Shown here: positions 20,925 to 48,915 of the stretch, piece after piece
How the letters are laid out: each line of letters opens with the position of its first letter
Position numbering within the stretch: position 1 is the first letter of the stretch
Origin: Mobula hypostoma
Lineage: Eukaryota
Assembly (NCBI RefSeq): GCF_963921235.1
Contig: NC_086108.1
Span: 54,872,001-54,936,000, forward strand
Direction: 5' to 3'
Length of the DNA: 64,000 nt
Notes under the pieces: model-generated
Databases searched by the model: none
Seen by the model: the letters and a program-made list of their open reading frames with translations, nothing else
Told to the model about the DNA's origin: nothing
Made by a program: the position numbers and the translations under genes

Positions 20925-21245
20925 GGAACACACAAAATGCTGGGAAAGCTCAGCAGACCAGTAGTTGGGGGACATCTTTGATCCGTCCGCCACAAAAGGC
21001 AGGATTTCTTGGTAGCCTTCCAATTTAATTTGACTTCCCATTCTTATTCTGACATGTTGGTTCATGTCCACCTATCACCTTCCAGCTTTTTACTTCATCT
21101 CCCCTTACCCAGCTACCAACCTTCCCCCTCACCTGGTTTCACCTGGTGCCAGTTTGTACTCCTTCATCTAACCCCCACCTTCTTATTCTCACTTCTGCGC
21201 CTTTCCTTCTGGTCCTGGTGAAGGAGCTCAGCCCGAAGTCTGTTT
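20925..21245 (+). mobile_element. Degraded Penelope-like fragment with an inverted 5' piece
   Basis: ccattcttattctgacatg...ggtcctggtgaaggagctcagcccgaa is homologous to 6970-7520, and is preceded by an inverted acacaaaatgctgg piece. Confidence 0.65.
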
Positions 21246-21257
21246 ATTTTCTTCCAC

Positions 21258-22645
21258 AACAGTGCGATCACTCAAGTTGAGTATGATATTCTCCTAAGGG
21301 GTTGTCTATTGGTGTGTCCTCAGGTAGCTGTGGAGGCCGATCTACGATGCAGGTATTATGATGCAGCGTGGGCGAGAGTAACTGGTGGCTGTGGAGGCCG
21401 ATCTACGATGCAGGTATTCTGACGCAGCGTGGGCGAGAGTAACTGGTGGCTGTGGAGGCCGATCTACGATGCAGGTATTCTGAAGCAGCGTGGGCGAGAG
21501 TAACTGGTGGCTGTGGAGGCCGATCTACGATGCAGGTATTCTGACGCAGCGTGGGCGAGAGTAACTGGTGGCTGTGGAGGCCGATCTACGATGCAGGTCT
21601 TCTGACGCAGCGTGGGTGAGAGTAACTGGTGGCTGTGGAGGCCGATCTGCGATGCAGGTCTTCTGAAGCAGCGTGGGCCAGGGTGGCTGGTGGCTGTGGA
21701 GGCCGATCTGCGATGCAGGTCTTCTGAAGCAGCGTGGGCCAGGGTGGCTGGTGGCTGTGGAGGCCGATCTGCGATGCAGGTCTTCTGAAGCAGCGTGGGC
21801 CAGGGTGGCTGGTGGCTGTGGAGGCCGATCTGCGATGCAGGTCTTCTGAAGCAGCGTGGGCCAGGGTGGCTGGTGGCTGTGGAGGCCGATCTGCGATGCA
21901 GGTCTTCTGAAGCAGCGTGGGCCAGGGTGGCTGGTGGCTGTGGAGGCCGATCTGCGATGCAGGTCTTCTGAAGCAGCGTGGGCCAGGGTGGCTGGTGGCT
22001 GTGGAGGCCGATCTGCGATGCAGGTCTTCTGAAGCAGCGTGGGCCAGGGTGGCTGGCGGCTGTGGAGGCCGATCGGCGATGCAGGTCTTCGGAAGCAGCG
22101 TGGCCGAGGGTAGCTGGCGGCTGTGGAGGCCGATCGGCGATGCAGGTCTTCGGAAGCAGCGTCGCCGAGGGTAGCTGGCGGCTGTGGAGGCCGATCTACG
22201 ATGCAGGTCTTCGGAAGCAGCGTGGGCGAGAGTAACTGGCGGCTGTGGAGGGCGATCACGATGCAGGTCTTCGGATGCAGCGTGGGCGAGAGTAACTGGC
22301 AGCTGTGGAGGCCGATCTACGATACAGGTCTTCTGATGCAGCGTGGGCGAGAGTAACTGGTGGCTGTGGTTAGTGGTTGGGTCTTTTGGTTTTTCAGTCT
22401 CACTTTATGCAGTCGCCGCTTGTTCACTGTGGCACTGCGGAGGTTGTTCTCATGTAACACACAGCTCCCTCTTGAACAGATTTCTTCCAGATGTATCTAT
22501 TGAGTGCAATGCCTTCCAATTTTCAGATGCAATGTTGAATTTCTTCAGCCTGATTCTGATGTTGTCTTTGAACTCTTTCCTTTGCCCACCAGTGGCTCGC
22601 TGATCTTTCTTCAGCTGGGAGTAAAAGATCTGTTTGGGGTGATAC
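21258..22645 (-). mobile_element. RTE-clade LINE 3' fragment whose C-terminal segment is amplified into a minisatellite
   Basis: IFYSQLKKDQRATGGQRKEFKDNIR at 22450-22647; the element ends ...IGLHSYLRTHQ* followed by a short 3' UTR. Confidence 0.8.
21327..22369. repeat. GC-rich 61-bp tandem repeat, about 17 copies
   Basis: Unit gctgtggaggccgatctgcgatgcaggtcttctgaagcagcgtgggccagggtggctggtg. The first and last gctgtgg are 1036 bp apart. Confidence 0.97.
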
Positions 22646-25456: not shown

Positions 25457-27262
25457 AGTACAATGTGATCACCTGCAATCTTTTTCCATGAATCTCATTT
25501 ACTATATGTCCGTCCATTTCACAGATAGTCTATTTTAAGTCTGTTATCTTTCATTTTTGTTGTTTTTGTTGTTGTCTTATGGACAAAAGCATTTAAATGA
25601 TATGAAAGTGCACAATTTTGAATCTTCATATACCCAAAGTTGTATCATGGCTAAAAGAGTAATGGAATTAATGCACACATGAATAGCTATAGTGTTTTGT
25701 ACATTTGCCTAAATTCTTGGAATCTTTTCCACCCTCCCCAACCCTTTTTATTTACAAAGAATTTCCTCTAGAATGATATGTGTTCTTAAAATGCCAAAAT
25801 AAATATAAAATTCCAAAGATACATTTTAAAGTATGGGCTGTAACTTTAAGTAAACACAATAAATTTGGATGTCTTTTGGAAAAGTTGATCATTAACTGCT
25901 TTGGGATTCAAGGAAAGTAGACTCCCTGACCTTTTATGTGTGGGACCTGCTTTTGAAACAAGATTATGTTGATCAGATTTGAGGTTAAATGAATCCCACA
26001 TCTGCACTTTTAAGTTTTAAAAGTTCAAATGACTCTATCTCAAAGGACAACAGGAGAGCTGCTGGCCTGATTTTTCTGCCAATATTTATCCCTCAGCCAA
26101 TATTAACTGAACAAATTCATACAGCTGATAGGAAACGTTTGCTCTGTGCAAATGGACTGCTGCATTTGGACCCAATCACACCTCAAATGTACTTATTTGT
26201 TTTCAAAGAACTTTGGGGGCCCCTGAAAGGGACAAAAAGCTCTCTAAAAGGGCAACTCTTTACTCTACATTGAAGAGGAGTATTTTAAAGAGATAAGCTC
26301 TGTGCAGCACATAGACTGTTTGGGAAATAGGAGCTTGGTTTTGCTGCAATGTGAATATTTAGGATTCTGAAAGGCTTTTTAAAAAGTTAAACCATACCTC
26401 AAAAGCTCTCAAGTCACTAGGAATGTTTTCGTTCAGTGATATGGAAGTTATTCAAGAGATTTTAATCATGTAAGTATTGTTAAAACATATTTTCCTGATC
26501 TTTTTGACTTTTCTATTAGCACCTGTATGCAAATACTTGTTAATGAGTTTGTCAGTGGCACACAGATAAGTGGTGCAGATAGAAGTAGAGCATAAAGAAA
26601 TTAATTGATTAAATATAAAGTGGAAACTGTGCTAAATAAAGTGAAGTATAAACAAGTTGAGATCCAAAGTGATTTAAAGAAATATGTACATTGATCATTA
26701 AAACATATCATTGATAGATTCGAAAAATAATTTTAAAAAAGGAATTTTGATCTTTATGTCTGAAGAATCTGAATATGAGGGATTAAAAGTTACACATTGT
26801 GCGACACACACAAAATGCTTGAGAAACTCAGCAAGTCAGGTAGCACTTATGGAGGGGATTAAACAGCTGACAATTTGGGTCCGCGACCCTTCAAACCTGA
26901 AAGTGTCACTACACTCCACTGATTCCCTATTGGACATGGGTGCAAGTCATGGAATTTTAGTTTTAAGGGAAACAAGTTCAATGCATCCTTTTGGGTGTCA
27001 TGTCTGTGTGGTAAACCATATATATGTTGTAACTGGGTTAACTGTCTGGACACGCCCCTCTGCTGACTGCCCCTGTGGCTCCTCCCACAGAATCCTGTAT
27101 AAAGGTGTTTCACCTTGCCCCTCCCCCACGGTCCCGGGGCAGACACTCACCATGGAGGTCGTATTGTACAGCGAATAAAAGCCTTTCAGTATTTTACCCA
27201 AGTTCAGTCTTTTGGAGTTATTGAAGGTGCGCTTCAATTTTATTCGCTGTACATTTTAAAGC

Positions 27263-28200
27263 ATGGAACACGCGCTGAGACCCGACAGGTTAGACCTCAA
27301 TTCGCAAACGCCTGAAGCTGGAAACGCTTTCGAACTCTGGCTGACCTGCTTTGAAGCTTACATAGAGGGGATTAAAATGACCGATCCCATAACGAAGCAC
27401 AGTGTTCTACTCTCCAGGGTCAGTCCACGGGTCTATTTGCTAATCAGAGACCAGTCGAGCTACGACGGCACGATGAGCGCCCTCAATGGACAATACCTGC
27501 GTCCGATAAACAGCGTCTATGCTCAGCATCACTTAGTAACAAGGCAACAATGGCCCGGAGAATCAAGTGCTGAGTTTGTCCAGGCCCTACGGACACTCGT
27601 GCGAGCCTGCAATTGCCAGGAGCTGACGGCGGCGCAGCATGCAGAGCTCCTAGTGAGAGACGCCTTCGTCACGGGGACCAGGTCAGTGTATGTGCACCAG
27701 CGGCTGTTGGAAAAAGCCGATCTTACCTTAAGTTCGGCGATCGAGCTGGCCGACACGCTGGATGCTGCTCTGCATAACTCCGAGGCTCTCCAGGCACACG
27801 ATCCCCCGATGGCCTCATGGGCGCCGCAGACCCCGCAACCCACCAGTGAATCGACCTCGGCTTCTGCCAGTTGCAAGTCCCTGCAACCCGCCGGCGAATC
27901 GACTTCGGCTGCCGCCAGTCGCGAGTCCGCGAAGTACTACTTCTGCGGACTGGAGAAGCACCCCTGGAAATGCTGCGCGGCCCGATAAACTACTTGATCC
28001 AGCTGCGGAAAGAAGGGCCACTTCGCCATGGTCTGTAAGTCCAAATCGCGAGCGGGATCGAGCAGTGCCGCGTGTGAGACATGGGGGTCGCCATCTTGCC
28101 TGTCGCCATCTTCCTTGCACACCGCCACCACGTGTGAGACATGGGGGCGGCCATTTTGGTTGGCGCCCCTCCCACCGCTGACGACCGACGGGTGCTCATG
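27263..28200 (+). pseudogene. gag: Gypsy gag with tandem CCHC knuckles and a premature stop
   Basis: ORF 27263-27988 (TRQQWPGES...RDAFVTG...YFCGLEKHPWKC), continuing past stops into CGKKGHFAMVC. Confidence 0.88.
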
Positions 28201-31186
28201 GGGCACCCCACCGCGCTGGACCAAGACAGCGACCCTACCCTGGCTTCCGTGACCCTCGACCAAAGCGCTCCCCACCAGCTCACAAGGTCAATGATGGACA
28301 TCCTGGTGGAGGAGCGCAGGTCAAGCTGCCTTTTTGACACAGGCAGCACGGAGAGTTTTATCCACCGGACACGGTGCAGCATTGTGGACTCGTGATACGG
28401 CCGGTAAGTCAGAGGGTCACCATGGCTTCCGGGTCACATACAACAGACATCCGGGAGGGGTTGTGTAGTGAATCTAGTGGTGCAGGGCACAGAATATCTA
28501 GACTTTACGTTACTGGTCATACCTCAACAGTGTGCCTCTGTGCTATTGGGGCTCGACTTCCAGAGCCACCTGAAAAGCGTGACAATGAAGTATGATGGGC
28601 CCCTCCCACCAATCACTGTCGTAAATCCCCAGTTTTGTAGGGATACGTCACATACCCCGCTACTGACCACACACACACACACCGAACCGCACATCCCACC
28701 CAACACCATGCCAACTGCCGCACCACCGACACCACTTGCGGCCTCTCCACCCTCAGGATCCCTCCCCCACCGCTGTTTTCCAACCTGACCCCCGACTGTA
28801 AACCTGTGGCAACTAAAAGCAGGAGGTACAGCGCGGGGGACAGAGCCTTCATTAAGTCAGAGGTGCAGCGGCTGCTCAGGGAGGGGGTCATTGAGGCAGG
28901 CACAAGTCCTTGGAGGGCGCCAGTGGTCGTTGTTCGGAACGGGGAGAAGAATAGGATGGTCGTGGACCATCAATAGGTTCACGTAGCTCGACGCGTACCC
29001 TCTACCCCGCATCGCGGATACGGTCAATCAGATAGCACAATACAAGGTGTACTCGACCATAGACCTAAAATCCACTTACCATCAGCTCCCCATCCGCTGG
29101 GAAGACCGCGCTTACACCACCTTCGAGGCGGACGGCAGGCTTTATCAATTCCTGTGCGTCCCCTTTGGTGTTACAAATGGGGTAGCTGTCTTCCAGAGGG
29201 CAATGGACTGGATGGTGGACCAGTGCCAACTGAAGGCCACGTTCCCATATCTGGATAACATCACCATCTGCGGTCACCACCGGCAGGATCACAACAACAT
29301 CCTCCAAAAATTTCTCCAAGCGGCCAAATCTTTCAACCTCACCTATAACAAGGACAAGTGTGTATTCGGGACCACCTGACTTGCTATCCTTGGGTGTGTC
29401 GTGGGGAATGGAGTCATCGGCCCTGACCCCGACCGTATGCACCCCCTGTTGGAACTCCCTCTTCCCAATACCCTCAGAGCCCTCAAAAGGTGCCTGGGCG
29501 TCCTTTCATATTACACCCAATGGGTCTCTAACTACGCAGACAAGGCCCGCCCCCTGGTTGAGTCCACCACATTCCCCCTCTCAGCCGAGGCCCGCGCGGC
29601 CTTCAGCCGCATTAAAAGGGGACATTGCCAAAGCAGCAATGCATGCGGTGGACGAGGCCATTCCCTTCCAAGTAGAGAGTGACGCCTCCGACTTTGCGCT
29701 GGCTGCTACCCTCAACCGGGCGGATAGACTGGTGGCGTTCTTCTCCCGTACCCTTCAAGGCCCTGAAATTTGGCACTCCGCGATAGAGAAAGACGCCCAG
29801 GCCATAGTGGAAGCTATTAGGCACTGGAGACACTATCTCGCCAGCAAAAGGTTCACCCTGCTAACTGACCAGCGCTTAGTCGCATTCATGTTTAATAATC
29901 AGCAGCGGGGCAAAATCAAAAATGATAAAATTCTGAGGTGGAGAATCGAACTCTCCACCTACAACTATGACATCATGTACAGGCCTGGGAAGCTCAACGA
30001 GCCCTCCGATGCCCTATCCCGGGGAACGTGCGCCAGCGCGCAGATCAACCGGCTATATGCCCTACATGTAGATCTTTGCCACCCGGGGGTCACCCGGCTT
30101 TTCCACCGTGAAAGCCCGGAACCTGCCTTACTCCCTTGAGGAGATCAGGACGATGACCAGGGACTGCCAAGTCTGCGCAGAGTGAAAACCGCACTTCTAC
30201 AGACCCGAAAAGGCACCACTCATCAAGGCCACCCGCCCTTTTGAGCAACTGAGTGTTGACTATAAGGGCCCCCTTCCCTCTACCGACCGCAATGTGTACT
30301 TTCTTAACGTTATTGACAAGTACTCGCGGTTCCCCTTCGCCATCCCCTGCCCCGACACCACTACCACATCTGTTATAAAAGCCCTGCGCAAGCTCTTCAC
30401 TCTGTTCGGATACCCATGCTATATCCACAGTGACAGAGGGTCCTCGTTTATGAGTGACGAGCTGCGCCAATACCTGCTGGCTAGGGGAATTGCAACTAGT
30501 AGGACCACGAGCTATAATCCCCGGGGGAATGGACAGGTGGAGAAGGAGAATGGCACGGTGTGGAAAGCCACACTCTTAGCCCTCAGGTCAAAGGGACTGC
30601 TGGTCTCCCGCTCACAGGAGGTCCTTCCCGAGGCACTCCACTCCATCCGCTCCCTGTTATGCACGGTCACCAATGCCACCCCTCATGAGCGGCTCTTTTC
30701 TTTTCCCAGAAAGTCGACCACTGGGACTACCCTACCAACTTGGCTGACGTCCCCGGGGCCAGTACTGCTCCGGAAACATGCGAGGAGCAATAAATACTCC
30801 CTGATGGTCGAGAGGGTTCTCTTACTTCATGCGAACCCTCAGTATGCCTATGTGGTTTTACCTGATGGGAGGACACTGTCTCCATCCGCAACCTAGCGCC
30901 CGCAGGAGCACCGGGCCCCTACCCTGAACACTCTGTGGTGACTATTGACCCCGTACCCACCAATGTATGTACTCACGAGACACCGCACACTCCAAGCCCT
31001 ACACAGACGCCACACGACACTCCCATACCGGGCGCGACGCACACACACGAGGGATTACCGACGCCTAACGTGCTGGCACCTGAAGTCAGGCCGGAGCCAG
31101 CACAACCGCCATCGCCGGTGCAATCACCACCGGTGCTACGTAGATCACAGCGACGGACTCGACTGCCTGATAGACTTGACCTGTAG
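28200..31186 (+). pseudogene. pol: Gypsy pol (PR-RT-RNase H-IN), frameshifted
   Basis: PR LFDTGS; RT SPWRAP, IDLKSTYHQ, PFG, YLDN; RH ESDASD, FTLLTDQ; IN IHSDRGSSF, PRGNGQVE. Confidence 0.93.
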
Positions 31187-31569
31187 GTATACTTGTTGTA
31201 AATATTGTCAGTCACTTCACCCCGCAGGACTCTCTTTTTTTTAAAAAAAGGAGGGGTGAATGTGGTAAACCATATATATGTTGTAACTGGGTTAACTGTC
31301 TGGACACGCCCCTCTGCTGACTGCCCCTGTGGCTCCTCCCACAGAATCCTGTATAAAGGTGTTTCACCTTGCCCCTCCCCTTCAGTCTAGGGGCAGACAC
31401 TCACCATGGGGGTCATATTGTACAGCGAATAAAAGCCTTTCAGTAATTTATCCAACTTCAATCTTTTGGAGTTATTGAAGGTGCGCTTCAGTCTGTGACC
31501 AGAGGTGCATTGCAGGGATCAGTGCTGGGACCTTTGTTGTTGGTGAATGTTGGAGATATCATTAAAAGG

Positions 31570-34500
31570 TTTTCAAATTAAAAAGGTTTGTTTATTTAAA
31601 AAGAGAGCTTCACGGGTGTTTGGCCATTGCAGAGGCCCTATCAGTGGTGGGAGCAGAGTACTGCAAACTAAATAAAAGTACAAGAGGGACAAGCAGAGCG
31701 GCCATTTGTTGAGAGTAGGCCAGTGGAGAGAGTGGAAATGTTAGGCCTTGGCTCAAAGAAAGCTTTGGCTCGGAGAAGCCATTGGCTGTGGGTAAGCTTC
31801 TGTTATGGTTTTCTTTTTGTTTTTCTCTTACTGTACTTGGTATAGGAAATGGCGGTTGTGGTTTCTTCATGCCGGATGTTGGAGACCTGGGAGACCCAGA
31901 GTCTCCCAGGGAATTACATTTGCATGAAGTACATCCGGCTGCAGCTCTGTGAAGACCATGTTAGGGATCTGGAGCAGCAGCTGAATGACCTTCAGCTTGT
32001 ACGGGAGAGTGAGGAGATAATTGATCAGAGTTACAGGGAAGTAGTCATCCCGAAGTTGCAGGAGACGGATAGCTGGGTGATTGTCAGGAGAAATGGAAAT
32101 ATAAATAGGCAGTTAGAGCAGAGCACACCTGTGGCCATTCATCTCAAAAATAAGTATACTGATTTGGATACTTCTGTGGGGGATGACCTCCCGGGGGAAT
32201 ACCACAGCGACTGGGTTACACGCACTGAGCATGGGTCCATGATGCAGAGGAAAAGAGAGAAAAGGGAGCGGTGGTGATAAGGGACTCAATAGTGAGGGGA
32301 ACAGACAGGAGATTCTGTGGGTGTGAACAGGATACCCGGATGGTATGGGTCAGGGACATCTCAGATTGGTCTACAACAATTTGGAGAGGGAGGGAGAGCA
32401 GTCTTGGTACATATTGGTACCAATGACATAAGAAGGAAAAGCAAAGAGGTCCTGAAAAGAGATTTTAGAGAGCTAGGTAGAAAGCTGAGAAGCAGGACCT
32501 CCAGGGTAGTAATTTCTGGATTGCTGCCCTTGCCACGCGCCAGTGAGGGTAGAAACAGGATGATTTGGCAGATAAATGTGTGGCTGAGAAGCTGGTGCAG
32601 GGGGCAGGGCTTCAGATTCTTGGATCTCTTCTGAAGGATGTATGACTTGTTTAAAAGTGACGGGTTGCACCTGAATCCGAGGGGGACCAATATTCTCATG
32701 GGTAGTTTGTTAGAGCTGTTGAGGAGGGTTTAAACTAATTTGGCTGTGGGGTGGGAACTGGAGTGATAGTCCTCAGGATAGGATGGATGGTAAAGAAGTA
32801 AAGATAGCATGCAGTCAGACTGTCAGGAAGGGCAGGCAGGTGATGGGACATCCAACAGGGTGAGTATCAGTACATTAGGGATGCAAAGTCAAAAAGGCTG
32901 GCGAACATGGTACTCATGGTGTTGTATCTCAATGTGCGGAGTATAAGAAGTAAGGTGGATGATCTTGTTGCGATTTTACAGATTGCCAGGTATGATGTTG
33001 TGGCCATTACTGATTTGTGGCTGAAGGATGGTTGTAGTTGGGAGCTGAATGTCCAAGGTTACATGTTATATCGGAGGGATAGGAAGGTAGGCAGAGGGGG
33101 AGGCATGGCGCTACTGGTAAAGAATGGCATCAAATCAGTAGAAAGATGTGACATAGGATCGGAAGATGTTGAATCCTTGTGGGTTGAGTTGGGAAACTGC
33201 AAGGATAAAAGGACCCAGATGGCAGTTATCTACAGGCCTCCCAACAGTGGCTGGGAGGTGGACCACAGATTACAACAGGAAATAGAAAAGGCGTGTCAAA
33301 AGGGCAATGTTATGGTGGTCATGGGAGATTTTAACATGCAGGTTGATTGGGAAAATCAGGGTAGTAATTGATCTCAAGAGAGTGAGTTTGTTGAATGCCT
33401 ATGAGATGGCTTTTTAGAGCAGTTTGTCGTTGAGCCTACTAGGGGATCAGCTATATTGGATTGGATGTTATGTAATGAACCAGAGGCGATTAGGGAGCTT
33501 AAGGTAAGAGAACTCTTCGGAACCAGTGATCACAGTATGATTGAGTTCAACTTGAAATTTGATAGGGAGAAAGTAAAGTCTGACATCGCAGTATTTCATT
33601 GGAGTAAGGGAAATTACATTGGTGTGAGAGAGGAGCTGGCCAAAGTAAATTGGAAGGAGCTGTGAGCAGCAATGGTGTGCATTTCTGTGAAAAATAAGGA
33701 AGGTGCAGGACATGTGTATTCCAAAAGTGAAGAAATACTTGAATGGCAAAACAGTACAACCGTGGCTGACAAGGGAAGTCAAAGCTAATGTAAAAACAAA
33801 AGAGAGGGCATACAACAAAGCAAACAATAGTGGGAAGATAGAGGACTGGGAAGTTTTTAAAAACCTACAGAGAGCAACTATAAGAATCATTAGAAGGTAA
33901 GAGATGAAATATGAAAGCAAGCTAGCAAATAATATCAAAGTGGATAGTAAAGGCTTTTTCAAGTATGTAAAAAATAAAAGAGAGTTGAGAGTGGATATAG
34001 GACCACTAAAAAATGAAGCAGGAGAAATAATAACAGGGGACAAGGAGATGGCAGATGAACTAAATGAGTATTTTGCATCAGTCTTCACTGTGGAGGACTC
34101 TAGCAGTGTGTCAGATGTTATAGTGTGTGAAGGAAGAGAAGTGGGTGTAGTTACTATTACAAGGGAGAAGGTGCTCAAAAAGCTGAAAGACCTAAAAGTA
34201 CATAACTCACCCTGACCAGATGAACTGCCCCCTAGGGTTCTGAAAGAGGTAGCGTTAGAGATTGTGGCAGCATTAGAAATGGTCTTTCAAAAATCTCTGG
34301 ACTCTGGTATGATGCCAGAGGACTGGAAAATTACAAATGTCACTCCACTCTTTAAGAAAGGAGGAAGGCAGCAGAAGGAAATTATAGACCAAATAGCCTG
34401 ACCTCAGTGGTTGGGAAGATGTTAGAGTCAATTATTAAGGATGAGGTGATGGAGTGCTGGGTGACACAGGACAAGATAGGACAAAGTCAGCATGGTTTCC

Positions 34501-35785
34501 TGAAGGGACTATCCTGCCTGACGAACCTGTTGGAATTCTTTGAGGAGATTACAAGTAGGATAGATAAAGGGGATGCAGTGGATGATGTATATTTGGATTT
34601 TCAGAAGGCTTTTGACAAGGCACCACACATGAGGCTGCTTTCCAAGTTAAGAGTCCATGGTATTACAGGAAAGTTACTAACATGGTTAGAGCATTGGCTG
34701 ATCAGAAGAAGGCAGTGAGTGGGAATAAAAGGATTCTTGTCTAGTTGGCTGCCAGTGATTAGTGGTGTTCTTCAGGGGTTGGTGTTGGGACCACTTCTTT
34801 TTATGCTGTATATAAATGATTTAGATGATGGAATAGATGGCTTTGTTGCCAAGTTTGCAGATGATACGAAGACTGGTGGAGGGGCAGGTAGTGTTGAGGA
34901 AACAGGTAGGATGTAGAAGGACAGTCAGATTAGGAGAATTGGCAAGAAAGTGGCAAATGAAATATAATGCTGGAAATTGCATGGTCATGCACTTTAGTAG
35001 AAGAAATAAATGCGCAGACTATTTTCTAAATGGGGAGAAAATCCAACAATCTGAGATGCAAAGGGATTTGGGAGTCTTTGTGGAGAACACCCTAAAGGTT
35101 TACTTGCAGTTGAGCCGGTGGTGAGGAAGGCAAATGCACTCTTAGCATTCATTTCAAGAGGTCTAGAATACAAGAGCAAGGATGTGATGCTGAGGCTTTA
35201 TAAGCCACTGGTGAGGCCTCACCTTGAGTATTGTGTACAGTTTTGGGCTCCTTAACTTAGGAGAGATGTGCTGGAATTGGAGAGTGTCCAGAGGAGGTTC
35301 ACAAGGAAGATGTCAGGAATGAAAGGGTTATCATACGAGGAACGTTAGATGGCCCTGGGTCTGTACTTGCTGGAATTTAGAAGGATGAGGGAGGTTCTCA
35401 TTGAAACCTTTCAAATGTTGAGAGGACTAGACAGAGTCGATGTGGAAAGGATGTTTCCCATGGTGGGGGAGTCTAGGACAAGAGGGCACAGCCTCAGGAT
35501 AGAGGGGCATCCATTCACAACGGAGGTGCGGAGAAATTTTTTTAGTCAAAGGCTGGTGAATTTGTGGAATTTGTTGCCACATGCAGCTATGGAGGTCATG
35601 TCATTGGGTGTATTTAAGGCAAAGATTGATAGGTTCTTGATTGGATACAGCATCAAAGGTTTCGGAGAGAAGCAGGAAATGGGCTTGAGGAGGAGGAGGA
35701 AAAAAGGAAGAGCCATGATTGAATGTTGGAGCAGATTTGATGGGCCAAATGGTCTAATTCTGCTCCTATATCTTATGGTCTTATA
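31570..35785 (+). mobile_element. Near full-length CR1 LINE (subfamily A), degraded
   Basis: ORF1 with a Zn-finger-like start and SGNH esterase motifs (GDS, VHIGTND, DGLHLN); ORF2 EN (YLNVRSI, YRPPNS, MGDFN, SDH) and RT (DFQKAFD, KFADD); tail tcttatggtcttat. Confidence 0.95.
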
Positions 35786-36082
35786 AATTACATGAAGAAG
35801 GTTGTATAAAGATACAATTTGATACAGATTAGATGATAAGTTGGATGGAGAATGGGGAGGTGGCACTTAATCTTGACAAGTGCAAGCTGATGCATTTTGG
35901 CAAGTCAAACAGGGGTAGGACAAGTACAGTAAATGGTAGGATGCTCAGGCATCCTGATTAACAGAGGGACCTCGAGGTTCATGTCCATGGTACCCAGACA
36001 GGCTATGGGTTATAAAAGTTGGGATGCTATGTTGCAGTTTTACAAAACACTAGTTACATTGCTCATGAAATGTTGTATGCAG

Positions 36083-36905
36083 TCAAGTTCAGGTGTAACT
36101 GTCATTCAACTGTACATGAACACCAATGAATACAGCCAATTGAAACACCGTCCCTCCAGGGTCAGGGTGCAAAACACAGTATGAACAGAATTACACAGCA
36201 CAAGGCAGGACTATCACATATGAGATAGCAAGTAAACATCCAGTCACACAAAAATATTTATTTAGCCCAAGTCCCTGAGTGACATTTTCTGTGACTTGTT
36301 AGCGCATGGGCATTATTGGCAAGAACAAGTCACTGCAGTCTCAGCGGTCCACAGATGAAAGTTCACAAGCATGCACACAATCCAGCTTGTCTTCCCCCAA
36401 GCAAACGCTGGATGGTAGCACCGACAGGAGGCGCTAGCCCCCGACTTAGCATGGATGCTGCACTACACCGCCTCTGGCATCTTCTCTGCTGGGCTGCTGC
36501 ACCAGGAAAGCCCACAGCTTGAGGCCTGGTCCTCACTACAACCGAGGCCACACAGCTCCCCTGGTTTCTGTCTTCCCAACAAACAAGGAAAATGGACTTG
36601 CAGTATTTTACATCACCTATGTCCGACAGGGTCTTGAGATCGTAGGGAAATGTCCAAGACAGTCACTGCTGTTGGAGTGCTCAATGCTTTTGTGCACCGA
36701 CTCCGATGCCTTTCTGTAGCAGGCAGTAACATGGTCAGCATCAAGTACAGCTCTCGAGCTCCTCTGACAAAGAGCCACTCTGTGGTGGGGTAAATACTTG
36801 AAGTTCTTAATGTCCAGCATTGTCTTGTGATCATAAAAAAGCCAAAGCACCTTTGGTTGGCTCCCAAGAAACTGTTGCATCTAAACGCGCTCCATCTTAT
36901 CAGAA
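36083..36905 (-). mobile_element. Second copy of the non-autonomous Rex-like element
   Basis: Starts aagatgg on the minus strand. Its 5' and 3' ends are homologous to 4750-5747. Confidence 0.75.
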
Positions 36906-37060
36906 GCAAGAGTAAATCTGCAGATGGTGGAAATCCGAGCAACGCACACAAAGTGCCGGAGAAGCTCAGCAGGCCAGGCAGCAGCCCGAAACGTCGACTG
37001 TATTTTTTTCCACAGATACTGCCTGGCCTGCTGAGTTCCTCCAGCATTTTGTGTGTATTG
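36905..37060. mobile_element. Penelope pseudo-LTR fold-back remnant
   Basis: Inverted arms (cacacaaagtgccggagaagctcagcaggccaggcagca / tgcctggcctgctgagttcctccagcattttgtgtg) around cccgaaacgtcgactg. Confidence 0.75.
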
Positions 37061-38769
37061 CCATTTTACCGGAACTCACCATGATATAGGATGGATCGGT
37101 TGCACTTGAATACGGAGGAGATTGACCAGGAAGTTGCCTGGTTGAAGGACTTTAGTTGTAGGAAGAGATTGGATGGGTTGTGCTTGCTTTTCCTGGAATA
37201 AAAGAGGTTGAGTGATATATAAAATATTAAGAGGAATGTATAGGGTAGCTAGTCAGAATTATTTTCGCATGGCAGGGGCATCAAACACAAGGTTTAGATT
37301 TAAAATCAGAGAGAAAATTTAAGGGGGTTTTAAGGGAAAAGGTTTTAAAAAGAGAGTGGTTGATATCTTGGAAAGCTGTTAACTTACTGCCCATTACACC
37401 TGCTGGCATTTAGGGCAGCAGTGAAGCTCCTCCATCTATGTCTGTCCTTGGCCGTCTTCTCTATTGTGCCCCGGGTGTGGTTCAGGGCTCTCATTTCTTT
37501 CTTTATGATATAGCGCCAGGTTGTTTCTGGTCTCCTGTGTTTCCTCCACCCTTCAGGGATCCAGTGAAGTGCTGTCTTGATGATGGATTTGGCCTCTTCT
37601 CATCACGTGCCCAGTCCATCTCCAATGTTTCCTCATGATGATTGTGGTTATGTCCTCTTGATGATACTGAAGCAGTAGGGTGTGGTTGGAGATCTTCTTT
37701 TGTCAGAAGATATGGAGGCTCTTGGTATGAAATTATGAAAGCTTGACAAGGTCGCTCCCTGTCATGTGCCAGCTTTCTCACCCGTACAAGAGTGTGGACA
37801 GAACACAGCTCTGGTACAGCTTCACCTTGGTATGGACGCTATACTTGGTTGATCACTATATATTTCTCATTGATCTGAAGATGTTTGTAGCTTGGTCCTT
37901 GCTGCCACCATCCTGCTGAATGCTGGTGCACAAGTTGGTGAATCTGTCGGTGCTGGCTAAGTCAACGCCATGTGCCTTGACGGGAGTAGGACACTCTACA
38001 TTGAGAGTCATGGTCTAAGTTTTCTCTGGCTGATTCTGAGTAATCTGTTCACCAAAAGCACACAGGCGCTGAGTTTTCTCTTGCATCTGCTGCTGTGTGT
38101 GATAGTAATGGAAGGTCATGTAGAAAGTTAAAGTAGAGAATAGAGTCCACCTCATGTCTCTCTAGTTATCTGTCATTGTTTGCATCATAACCCAGTCAAT
38201 CACCAGGTTAAACAACATCTCTGACATCACACAGCCTTACCTCACCCCTGTCTTGATTTCAAAGCTGAGGTTGCTGTGTCCAACTGTGCAGGTGAAGTTA
38301 GCAGAGAAACTCTGGATGAGCTGGATAACTTTGGAAGGGATCCCGTATGATCTGAGAATTCACCAGAGGCTTTCCCTGTGGATGCCAACAAAAGCCTTTA
38401 CAATGTCCACAAAATTCACATGCAGTTGTCTCTGCCACTCTGAGCACTGCTCTGTGATGTTATGCAATGTGAAGATGTGGTCAGCACAGTTCTGTTCTTC
38501 CTGAAACCAGCTTGCTCAAGTACACATTGACAGCAACTATAATCCGTTAGACAATGACTATGGTGATAATCTTGCTAGGCACAGACAGAAGTGTGATGCC
38601 ACATCAGTTACTGTAGTCACTTAGCACTCCTTTCTTGGGAATCCTAACAATGACTCCCTTTGTCCATTTCTTGGGTACTTGGGCCTGTTCCCAGATTATA
38701 GTAAACAGTGGTTGCAGGATGGCTGCTGCAACCTTTGATTTAGCTTTGAACAGGTTGGCATTAAATTGT

Positions 38770-47667: not shown

Positions 47668-47855
47668 AAGCAACACACACAAAATGCTGGTGGAACGTAG
47701 CAGGCCAGACAGCATCCATAGGAAGAAGCACAGTCGGGTCTCGGCCCGAAACGTCGACTGTGTTTCTTCCTATGGATGCTGTCTGTCCTGCTGCGTTCCA
47801 CCAGCATTTTGTGTGTGTTGCTTGAATTTCCAGCATCTGCAGATTTCCTCATGTT
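47668..47855. mobile_element. Penelope pseudo-LTR fold-back remnant
   Basis: Roughly 70-bp inverted arms around gggtctcggcccgaaacgt. Similar relics lie at 18725-18855, 22645-22700, 26800-26892 and 51248-51400. Confidence 0.8.
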
Positions 47856-48649: not shown

Positions 48650-48915
48650 GTACAGGCGACGTTTCAGGCCAAGACCCTTCGTCAGGACTAACTGAAGGAA
48701 GAGTTAGTAAGAGATTTGAAAGTGGAAGGGGGAGTCTCCCTCTCCCCCTCCCACTTTCAAATCTCTTACTAACTCTTCCTTCAGTTAGTCCTGACGAAGG
48801 GTCTCGGCCTGAAACGTCGACTGTACCTCTTCCTAGTGATGCTGCCTGGCCTGCTGCGTTCACCAGCAACTTTGATGTGTGTTGCTTGAATTTCCAGCAT
48901 CTGCAGAATTCTCTG
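48650..48915 (+). mobile_element. Penelope pseudo-LTR insertion with an inverted duplication
   Basis: Arms 48650-48734 and 48742-48826 are near-perfect inverted repeats, homologous to 6970-7070. Confidence 0.92.
48786..48823 (+). ncRNA. Minimal type I hammerhead ribozyme motif (Penelope-associated)
   Basis: UAGUC-CUGACGA-AGG(gucucgg)CCU-GAAA-CGUC^GACUG: intact core, helices I and II, and palindromic ACGU in place of helix III. Confidence 0.8.

What the first reader, a model, noticed from the sequence alone, without database searches (positions are those of the whole stretch)
27165..27253. Gypsy element with no tRNA primer site: the PBS position is a perfect 16-nt complement of its own LTR poly(A)-signal region
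Seen: the 5' LTR is not followed by TGG (the complement of tRNA CCA). Instead 27238-27253 (ttttattcgctgtaca) is the exact reverse complement of 27165-27180 (tgtacagcgaataaaa), which includes AATAAA. The gag ATG follows at 27263. The 16-mer is unchanged in the 3' LTR although the flanking R/U5 sequence differs. Known: Tf1/sushi-group elements self-prime by pairing the PBS with the first bases of the transcript. Inference: self-priming in a Mag-like lineage. The paired segment lies about 60 nt downstream of the TATAAA at about 27098 rather than at the predicted cap site. The duplex could therefore also mask the 5' poly(A) signal, or priming could use the R region at the RNA 3' end.
Basis: partly seen in the sequence, partly recalled or inferred. 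Interest (0 to 1): 0.8.

Follow-up and report, generated by a model that had tools for sequence, protein, structure and literature searches.

The report
Self-priming Gypsy retrotransposon clade in animals
This jumping gene in a ray-like fish genome, like about twenty distant relatives from other organisms, has no tRNA docking site and instead carries, exactly where DNA copying must start, a mirror copy of a stretch of its own end-repeat, so the group likely starts copying itself with a piece of its own RNA.

Summary
Confirmed. A decayed 4.5-kb Ty3/Gypsy copy (27007-31490, 5-bp TSD) has no TGG primer site; 27238-27253, one base after the 5' LTR, is the exact complement of 27165-27180. None of 41 sister 5' junctions picked by Gag has TGG. 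The pairing covaries: three compensatory transversions separate subfamilies in this genome, and 22 families (21 from metagenome/MAG contigs) keep LTR-CA, one spacer base, then a 9-19-nt helix with different letters (208 of 220 pairs; swapped partners average 110). A conserved RCC..GGY hairpin stacks on the arm's 3' end. These elements form their own RT clade, outside the Mag-type, sushi-type and integrase-first families tested, without a chromodomain. Best model (0.72): cis self-priming as in Tf1, with a cut after 27180 (inferred). Differences from Tf1: no 'pretzel' leader duplex, the primer ends on the poly(A) hexamer in 12 of 22 families, and a conserved TATA+TCAGT pair predicts a start about 50 nt upstream of the cut. 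Poly(A) masking is a plausible side effect, not the clade-wide reason. No RNA-end or biochemical data. The scan reported this same feature before, on other copies in this genome and in other genomes.

The parts
27002..27006 (+). left target-site duplication (5 bp)
   Evidence: same 5 letters at 31491-31495; 5-bp TSD in 28 of 37 copies with two LTRs
27007..27236 (+). 5' LTR, TG...CA, 230 bp
   Evidence: 95% identical to 31261-31490
27098..27103 (+). TATA box (predicted)
   Evidence: TATAAA in 61 of 80 family LTRs, AATAAA in its place in 11
27128..27132 (+). initiator position, predicted start near 27130; mutated in this LTR, TCAGT in the 3' LTR (31382-31386)
   Evidence: TCAGT in 72 of 80 LTRs, 32 nt after the TATA; no RNA data
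27165..27180 (+). arm 1: predicted self-primer segment, ends on the AATAAA hexamer; predicted cut between 27180 and 27181
27181..27231 (+). P2 hairpin (RCC...GGY) stacked on arm 1; long in this family, 4-6 bp at its base in most relatives
   Evidence: fold; RCY after the arm in 20 of 22 families; covariation, 1 of 3000 swaps
27237..27237 (+). single spacer base between LTR-terminal CA and the primer site
   Evidence: CA plus one base in 21 of 22 families
27238..27253 (+). arm 2: primer-binding-site position, complement of arm 1
27263..31186 (+). gag-pol region (Gag with CCHC knuckles, protease, RT, RNase H, integrase; no chromodomain or SH3_Tf2-1 hit), broken in this copy by frameshifts and stops
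   Evidence: Pfam; five tblastn pieces in three frames with 9 stops
31243..31260 (+). polypurine tract
31261..31490 (+). 3' LTR, with the second copy of arm 1 at 31419-31434
31491..31495 (+). right target-site duplication

Best explanation
The site one base after the 5' LTR pairs with a 15-16-nt stretch of the element's own LTR instead of a tRNA end, and this duplex likely primes minus-strand DNA synthesis after the RNA is cut, probably by the element's RNase H, right behind that stretch (27180/27181). Shown: the pairing, its fixed register at the LTR end, its covariation across a whole clade, and a conserved RCC..GGY hairpin that begins at the first base after the arm. Inferred by analogy with Tf1: the cut at the junction of the two stacked helices, extension from the new 3' end through the spacer and U5 to 27181, and a jump onto the roughly 15-25 nt of R left between the hexamer and the poly(A) site. 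Inferred: plus-strand synthesis copies the retained primer into the new primer site, which keeps the two arms Watson-Crick perfect. Unresolved: where the RNA starts. Motifs in this family point to about 27130 (a primer of about 50 nt with only its 3' 15-16 nt paired); a start inside the arm (Tf1-like 10-16 nt primer) remains possible. Hiding the 5' poly(A) signal is a likely side benefit in families whose hexamer lies in the arm.
For: No TGG in 41 of 41 5' junctions picked by Gag, whereas four other Gypsy families of this genome show TGG sites. CA plus one base, then the helix, in 21 of 22 families. Pairs 1-12: 255 Watson-Crick, 1 G-U, 8 mismatches. Pairs 4-13: 208 of 220 against a mean of 110 and a maximum of 149 in 20000 partner swaps; 158 of 170 against 80 (max 116) in 17 less related families. 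In this genome pairs 8, 11 and 15 switch by compensatory transversions between subfamilies (pair 11: 105 A-T, 42 T-A, 4 discordant). L109 carries one compensatory transversion in both LTRs and the primer site while 98-99% identical to its siblings. RCY follows the arm in 20 of 22; P2 covaries (1 of 3000 swaps; 10 of 3000 in the strict set) and its first pair alternates A-U, G-U, G-C as RNA helices do, while P1 has almost no G-U. One hybrid copy, L174, has both LTRs switching subfamily between 27173 and 27195, the predicted jump window. Tf1 precedent: 11-nt primer cut by RNase H (PMC7175516, passages); primer copied into DNA (PMC11042837, passages).
Against: No RNA ends, cleavage product or strong-stop DNA were seen; everything is comparative. 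Unlike Tf1 the arm is probably not at the cap in this family (motifs), and a long 5' overhang would leave a flap on plus-strand strong-stop DNA. The Tf1 leader-U5 duplex was not found (48 of 200 shuffles as good). Four of 22 families have only 5-9 contiguous perfect pairs (L090, L099, L103, L131); L090 and L096 lack RCY. In 12 of 22 families the LTR end was placed by motif, not by LTR comparison. P2 is not significant family by family. Subfamily counts are inherited events, not independent ones, and the sample was enriched for the rarer subfamily. L109 and L174 are single cases.
Confidence: 0.72

Rival explanations
1. The primer is the copy of arm 1 in the R region at the RNA 3' end (or a short transcript from any LTR), cut or trimmed back to the end of the hexamer; it pairs with the primer site by circularising the genome or in trans.
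For: The arm ends on a poly(A) hexamer in 12 of 22 families and ends in AAA in 21 of 22; the 3' LTR carries the same arm; a 3'-end primer would allow a fold-back strand transfer.
Against: The 5' copy lies 30-67 nt from the site and would pair first. In this family the 3' strand of P2 lies past the predicted poly(A) site, so P2 can form only at the 5' end. L174 has a primer site matching its internal subfamily and mismatching the arm in both LTRs at three pairs.
Confidence: 0.12
2. The helix is a regulatory RNA structure that hides the 5' poly(A) signal or controls translation or packaging; priming uses something else.
For: AAUAAA is fully paired at the 5' end and mostly open at the 3' end; 76 of 80 family LTRs keep it in the arm; the helix ends a few bases before the gag ATG.
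Against: 10 of 22 families have no A[AT]TAAA in the arm, and L070 has its AATAAA downstream, outside the helix. Masking does not need a one-base register at the LTR end or near-absence of G-U pairs. It leaves the element without any primer site.
Confidence: 0.1
3. A tRNA half or another host small RNA primes at this site, and the LTR match is secondary.
For: Half-tRNA priming is described for some copia lineages (PMC6317226, passages). My host tRNA set held only three isotypes, so the direct test was inconclusive.
Against: The site differs among 22 families and among subfamilies in one genome, always in step with the LTR arm; no Rfam match at E up to 10; best match to the 24 tRNA sequences held was 4 nt.
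Confidence: 0.04
4. The inverted repeat is a by-product of fold-back copying errors during replication and has no function.
For: Pairing fades gradually from position 12 to 17, as occasional snap-back copying might give.
Against: Fixed register, fixed flanking motifs (G at -10 in 19 of 22, RCY in 20 of 22) and no other primer site.
Confidence: 0.02

Closest known systems
Tf1, Tf2, Tj1 and the Tf1/sushi group of chromoviruses (self-primed Ty3/Gypsy; PMC7175516, PMC4600332, PMC5341516, bioRxiv 10.1101/2022.12.06.519325, passages read)
   Same: No tRNA site; the primer-site position pairs with a stretch of the element's own LTR; a cut at the arm's 3' end would free the primer; extra helices next to the cut.
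   Different: No chromodomain or SH3_Tf2-1 hit; RT-RNase H only 27-32% identical to sushi-type copies of the same genome and a separate clade; helix 9-19 bp ending in WAAA; a local RCC..GGY hairpin in place of the three-duplex pretzel; arm about 35 nt past the predicted start here, whereas the sushi-type primer in this genome begins about 30 nt after its TATA-like box.
Predicted self-priming in plant Tcn1 chromoviruses and TAR (Houba, Osr-1) copia elements (PMC6317226, passages)
   Same: Self-priming inferred from a 10-nt or longer complement between LTR and primer-site position; shows that the trait arose more than once.
   Different: Other lineages and hosts; that survey places self-priming Gypsy elements only with Tf1/sushi.
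Mag lineage (A, B, C clades; PMC6238403, passages)
   Same: Compact element, CCHC knuckles in Gag, 5-bp TSD, wide animal range.
   Different: The Mag-type family of this genome (label from recalled RNase H motifs, no named reference) has a TGG site and 28-29% RT-RNase H identity.
Named compact Gypsy clades that could be this clade: Cigr-1, MolGy clades (PMC6238403), Saci2/lennie (PMC12471100, abstract, Results, legends)
   Same: Saci2 has a single Gag-Pol frame and primer sites that vary between families; Cigr-1 is recalled as a single-ORF element of like size (recalled, from no call).
   Different: No reference sequence could be fetched. Saci2 has 4-bp TSDs and tRNA-assigned sites, against 5 bp here.

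Membership tests
Ty3/Gypsy LTR retrotransposon | LTRs with TG...CA, TSD, PPT, domain order PR-RT-RH-IN | tested here: met
   best solved relative Ty3 RT
Tf1/sushi group | primer-site position complementary to own LTR, no tRNA site | tested here: met
Tf1/sushi group | chromodomain or Tf2-type SH3 at the integrase end | tested here: not met
   no hit in two sister frames and three homologues at E up to 0.01
Tf1/sushi group | RT falls within the chromovirus clade | tested here: not met
   27-32% identity, separate clade; the comparison group is SH3_Tf2-1-bearing, self-complementary copies of this genome, not Tf1 itself; a sister relation is not rejected (AU p 0.57)
Tf1/sushi group | primer is the first bases of the transcript | tested here: inconclusive
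   motifs point to a start 50 nt before the arm end in this family; a TATA+Inr pair was found by regex in only 1 of the other 21 families; no RNA ends
Tf1/sushi group | three-duplex pretzel with leader-LTR pairing | tested here: not met
   leader versus loop pairing no better than shuffles, 48 of 200
Tf1/sushi group | RNase H cut frees the primer | not testable with these tools
   needs biochemistry
Mag lineage | RT-RNase H nested within Mag | tested here: not met
   28-29% identity to the Mag-type family; separate clade; sister position support 57; only one Mag-type family, labelled from recalled motifs
tRNA-primed LTR elements | TGG site complementary to a tRNA 3' end | tested here: not met
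   0 of 41 junctions; four control families have TGG
half-tRNA-primed elements | site complementary to an internal tRNA stretch | tested here: inconclusive
   only Lys, Cys and Thr tRNAs were held, best match 4 nt; covariation argues against
Saci2/lennie | 4-bp TSD | tested here: not met
   5 bp in 28 of 37 copies here and 8 of 9 relatives
Cigr-1 or MolGy clades | RT clusters with the named reference | not testable with these tools
   no reference sequence; the supplement read lists accessions only

The most novel reading that the evidence does not exclude
A widespread non-chromoviral animal Gypsy clade evolved tRNA-free priming independently of Tf1, with its own architecture: an internal primer about 50 nt from the cap whose 3' end is the poly(A) hexamer, cut at a coaxial junction with an RCC..GGY hairpin, so that one switch both silences the 5' poly(A) signal and makes the primer, and the primer rewrites its own binding site at each cycle.
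Probability: 0.35. Interest if true: 0.8.

Novelty: new variant of a known kind. Interest (0 to 1): 0.62.

Why it matters
Self-priming is treated in the papers I could read as a mark of the Tf1/sushi chromoviruses (with predictions for plant Tcn1 and TAR). A second, large animal Gypsy clade (homologues named from rays, a catshark, nematodes, a cnidarian, a shrimp and an insect) with a different structure would show that tRNA-free priming arose again, give a new natural substrate for RNA-duplex cutting by RNase H, and imply that these elements escape control by tRNA fragments. It bears on whether hairpin priming is ancestral to tRNA priming (raised in PMC3601003, passages). Practically, LTR annotation that demands a tRNA site misses or mislabels this clade. 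The predicted cut (27180/27181) and start (about 27130) are directly testable.

Tried and rejected
RNA evidence: no RNA holder listed; the four runs laid were contigs and show no starts, ends or poly(A) tails. Poly(A)-tailed retrocopies of the LTR: 0 matches. Viral contigs: no relatives. Host tRNA test: only three isotypes obtained, and the TGG controls were not matched either, so inconclusive. Rfam: nothing. Clade name: Atlas names uninformative; mollusc supplement gives accessions only, part 1 of 4 read; the Saci2 supplement search found nothing, its Figure S6 on primer sites could not be read and may bear on the naming; a second protein search listed no flatworm or tunicate names among its best 120. 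Levin's primary papers were not held. LTR-LTR differences as a map of the U3/R border: uniform in 37 copies, so the window's pattern is private. Splice-acceptor reading of the AG at -11/-10 (lead from the scan's BEL notes): 13 of 22 families have A at -11, others TG or CG, and pairing runs across it, so rejected as clade-wide. Genome-wide hybrid counts: one element with the switch behind the arm, none at the start-site interval, four hits that are evolutionary intermediates: too few to decide. L042 and L408 (foreign sequence before the arm) are explained by microhomology deletion and a nested insertion.

Full report
Observation. The sequence is as described: 27238-27253 is the exact reverse complement of 27165-27180, the gag ATG is at 27263 and no TGG follows the LTR. 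The element runs from 27007 to 31490, with 230-bp LTRs 95% alike, a 5-bp TSD and a PPT. Pfam gives RT, RNase H and integrase in Gypsy order; this copy is broken into five pieces with 9 stops, while two sister copies used as queries have one gag-pol frame of 1237 and 1285 aa. The RNA folds with z = -4.6 into the 16-bp helix (P1) with a second helix (P2) stacked directly on it. Nearest named proteins come from rays and a catshark, so the host is probably a ray-like fish (inference).

The family in this genome. It is abundant: 2942 first-look candidates for the LTR-gag junction and 750 exact matches to a junction pattern. Of 44 loci chosen by Gag similarity (the window included), 43 held an LTR and 41 a 5' junction; none of the 41 has TGG, and 28 of 37 two-LTR copies have a 5-bp TSD. 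Four other Gypsy families among 20 loci fetched from the same genome show TGG sites. Among 154 junctions, deliberately enriched for the rarer subfamily, pair 11 is A-T in 105 and T-A in 42 with 4 discordant, pair 8 switches G-C to T-A and pair 15 G-C to T-A. These are three inherited events, not 154 independent ones, but all are transversions and the unpaired flank changes freely.

Distant families. An alignment of 55 homologues fetched 69 metagenome loci and 9 MAG loci. In 33 of these 78 the 5' junction could be read; the rest lacked it, L132 repeats L131, and L083 and L193 had no readable 5' LTR. With the window they collapse to 22 families, 17 after removing close kin. In 21 of 22 the LTR ends in CA, one base follows, and the next bases pair with an LTR stretch ending in AAA or, once, AAT; the LTR end was fixed independently by LTR comparison in 10 of the 22. 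Pairs 4-13 are Watson-Crick in 208 of 220 cells, against a mean of 110 and a maximum of 149 in 20000 partner swaps; 158 of 170 against 80 in the strict set. Eighteen families have 11-17 contiguous perfect pairs, reached in 0 of 400 shuffles each; four fall short through a single mismatch or a shorter helix. RCY follows the arm in 20 of 22 and G stands at -10 in 19 of 22. P2 is not significant family by family but is as a set (0 of 1000 loop shuffles; 1 of 3000 strand swaps). Pairs 1-12 of P1 hold 1 G-U in 256 pairs, P2 15 in 97 (inflated by terminal pairs). L109 has a compensatory transversion in both LTRs and the primer site while 98-99% identical to three siblings.

Placement. RT-RNase H is 45-100% identical inside the group and 27-32% to outside families. 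A quick tree of 41 rows (13 redundant or short rows left out) holds all 30 members in one clade, SH-aLRT 100, apart from a Mag-type, five sushi-type and five integrase-first rows; which group is sister is unresolved. The labels Mag-type and sushi-type rest on recalled motifs and on an SH3_Tf2-1 hit, not on named references. No chromodomain or SH3_Tf2-1 was found in five members. The clade could not be named; Cigr-1 is a recalled candidate, Saci2 differs in TSD length.

Where the RNA starts. TATAAA stands in 61 of 80 family LTRs and TCAGT in 72 of 80, 32 nt apart, which predicts a start near 27130, 50 nt before the arm's end. As a control, the sushi-type family of the same genome has its 10-11-nt self-complementary stretch about 30 nt after a TATA-like box, as expected for a Tf1-like primer at the cap. 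Other families give no consistent promoter signal, and the [A/T]-G-Y motif at -11 to -9 could itself be an initiator. No RNA data could settle this.

Mechanism. Most likely (0.72) the 5' arm pairs in cis, the RNA is cut between P1 and P2, and DNA is extended from 27180. This follows Tf1, where the first 11 bases pair with the site and RNase H cuts after base 11 (PMC7175516, passages; PMC5341516 and PMC4600332, passages) and the primer is copied into DNA (PMC11042837, passages). Such copying would explain the lack of G-U pairs and the L109 change. L174, whose two LTRs switch subfamily between 27173 and 27195 while its primer site follows the internal subfamily, fits a strong-stop DNA that ends at the cut, but it is one copy. 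The Tf1 pretzel (bioRxiv 10.1101/2022.12.06.519325, passages) was not found. Poly(A) masking is predicted for this family but only 12 of 22 families have A[AT]TAAA in the arm. Rivals: priming by the 3' R copy (0.12), a purely regulatory helix (0.10), a host RNA (0.04; tRNA test inconclusive; Rfam blank), no function (0.02).

What is known. Nine full-text searches found self-priming tied to Tf1/sushi, with predictions for plant Tcn1 and TAR (PMC6317226, passages), and no paper on a self-priming non-chromoviral animal Gypsy clade. The library lacks most subscription papers, Repbase and GyDB, and Levin's originals. Also read as passages: PMC3601003, PMC6934838, PMC6238403 (supplement 4, part 1 of 4), PMC8220671, PMC5443660, PMC3670739; PMC12471100 abstract, passages, Results and part of the legends (99-102), whose primer-site figure could not be read (104). 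The scan's own notes report the same feature on at least five other copies in this genome and in other genomes; my reading was written before I saw them, and they are not independent support. One calls the lineage Mag-like, which my tree does not support.

Verdict. A real, clade-wide feature and a new variant of a known mechanism: it works like Tf1 self-priming but is not a Tf1/sushi member. The priming step itself is inferred. Interest 0.62.

Noticed in passing
window 27007-27236 vs 31261-31490: All 11 LTR-LTR differences lie past position 120 of the LTR, none in the first 120 nt; five cluster at 27127-27135 and erase the TCAGT motif of the 5' LTR. Sister copies show an even spread, so gene conversion of U3 in this copy is likely.
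   Followed up: partly
L174 (G000:C91:12652265-12655690): Internally deleted hybrid copy: both LTRs have U3, 5' R and arm 1 of one subfamily and P2/U5 of another, and both lack 40 nt that include the TATA position.
   Followed up: yes
L042/L212 (G000:C64:36376400-36382447): Integrase sequence joins the LTR at the arm end through a 9-nt microhomology; the integrase gene holds a near-copy of the predicted cut-site motif.
   Followed up: partly
L327, L328, L330, L331, L334: A sushi-type family (SH3_Tf2-1 hit) in the same genome has its own 10-11-nt self-complementary primer site, about 30 nt after a TATA-like box.
   Followed up: yes
L340-L364, L390-L412: In the second subfamily the TATA position reads AATAAA while TCAGT is kept 31-32 nt later, so U3 may hold a second poly(A)-like hexamer.
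   Followed up: no
window 27152-27178: Upstream ATG opening an 8-codon frame that stops inside the AATAAA; present in only 28 of 80 family LTRs.
   Followed up: partly
L242 (G000:C9:85463600-85473500): Integrase-before-RT Gypsy element with a SCAN domain in Gag and a TGG primer site.
   Followed up: no
L193-L198: Full elements of this eukaryotic clade sit in contigs filed as bacterial MAGs, most likely host contamination.
   Followed up: no
window 21201-22354: Tandem array of about 18 copies of a 61-nt unit.
   Followed up: no
window 48657-48819, 47668-47823, 36904-37061: Long inverted repeats (up to 54 nt perfect) made of short dispersed repeats lying head to head or tail to tail.
   Followed up: no
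window 31846-35786: A decayed non-LTR (LINE-like, endonuclease and RT motifs by eye) element follows the 3' LTR on the + strand.
   Followed up: no
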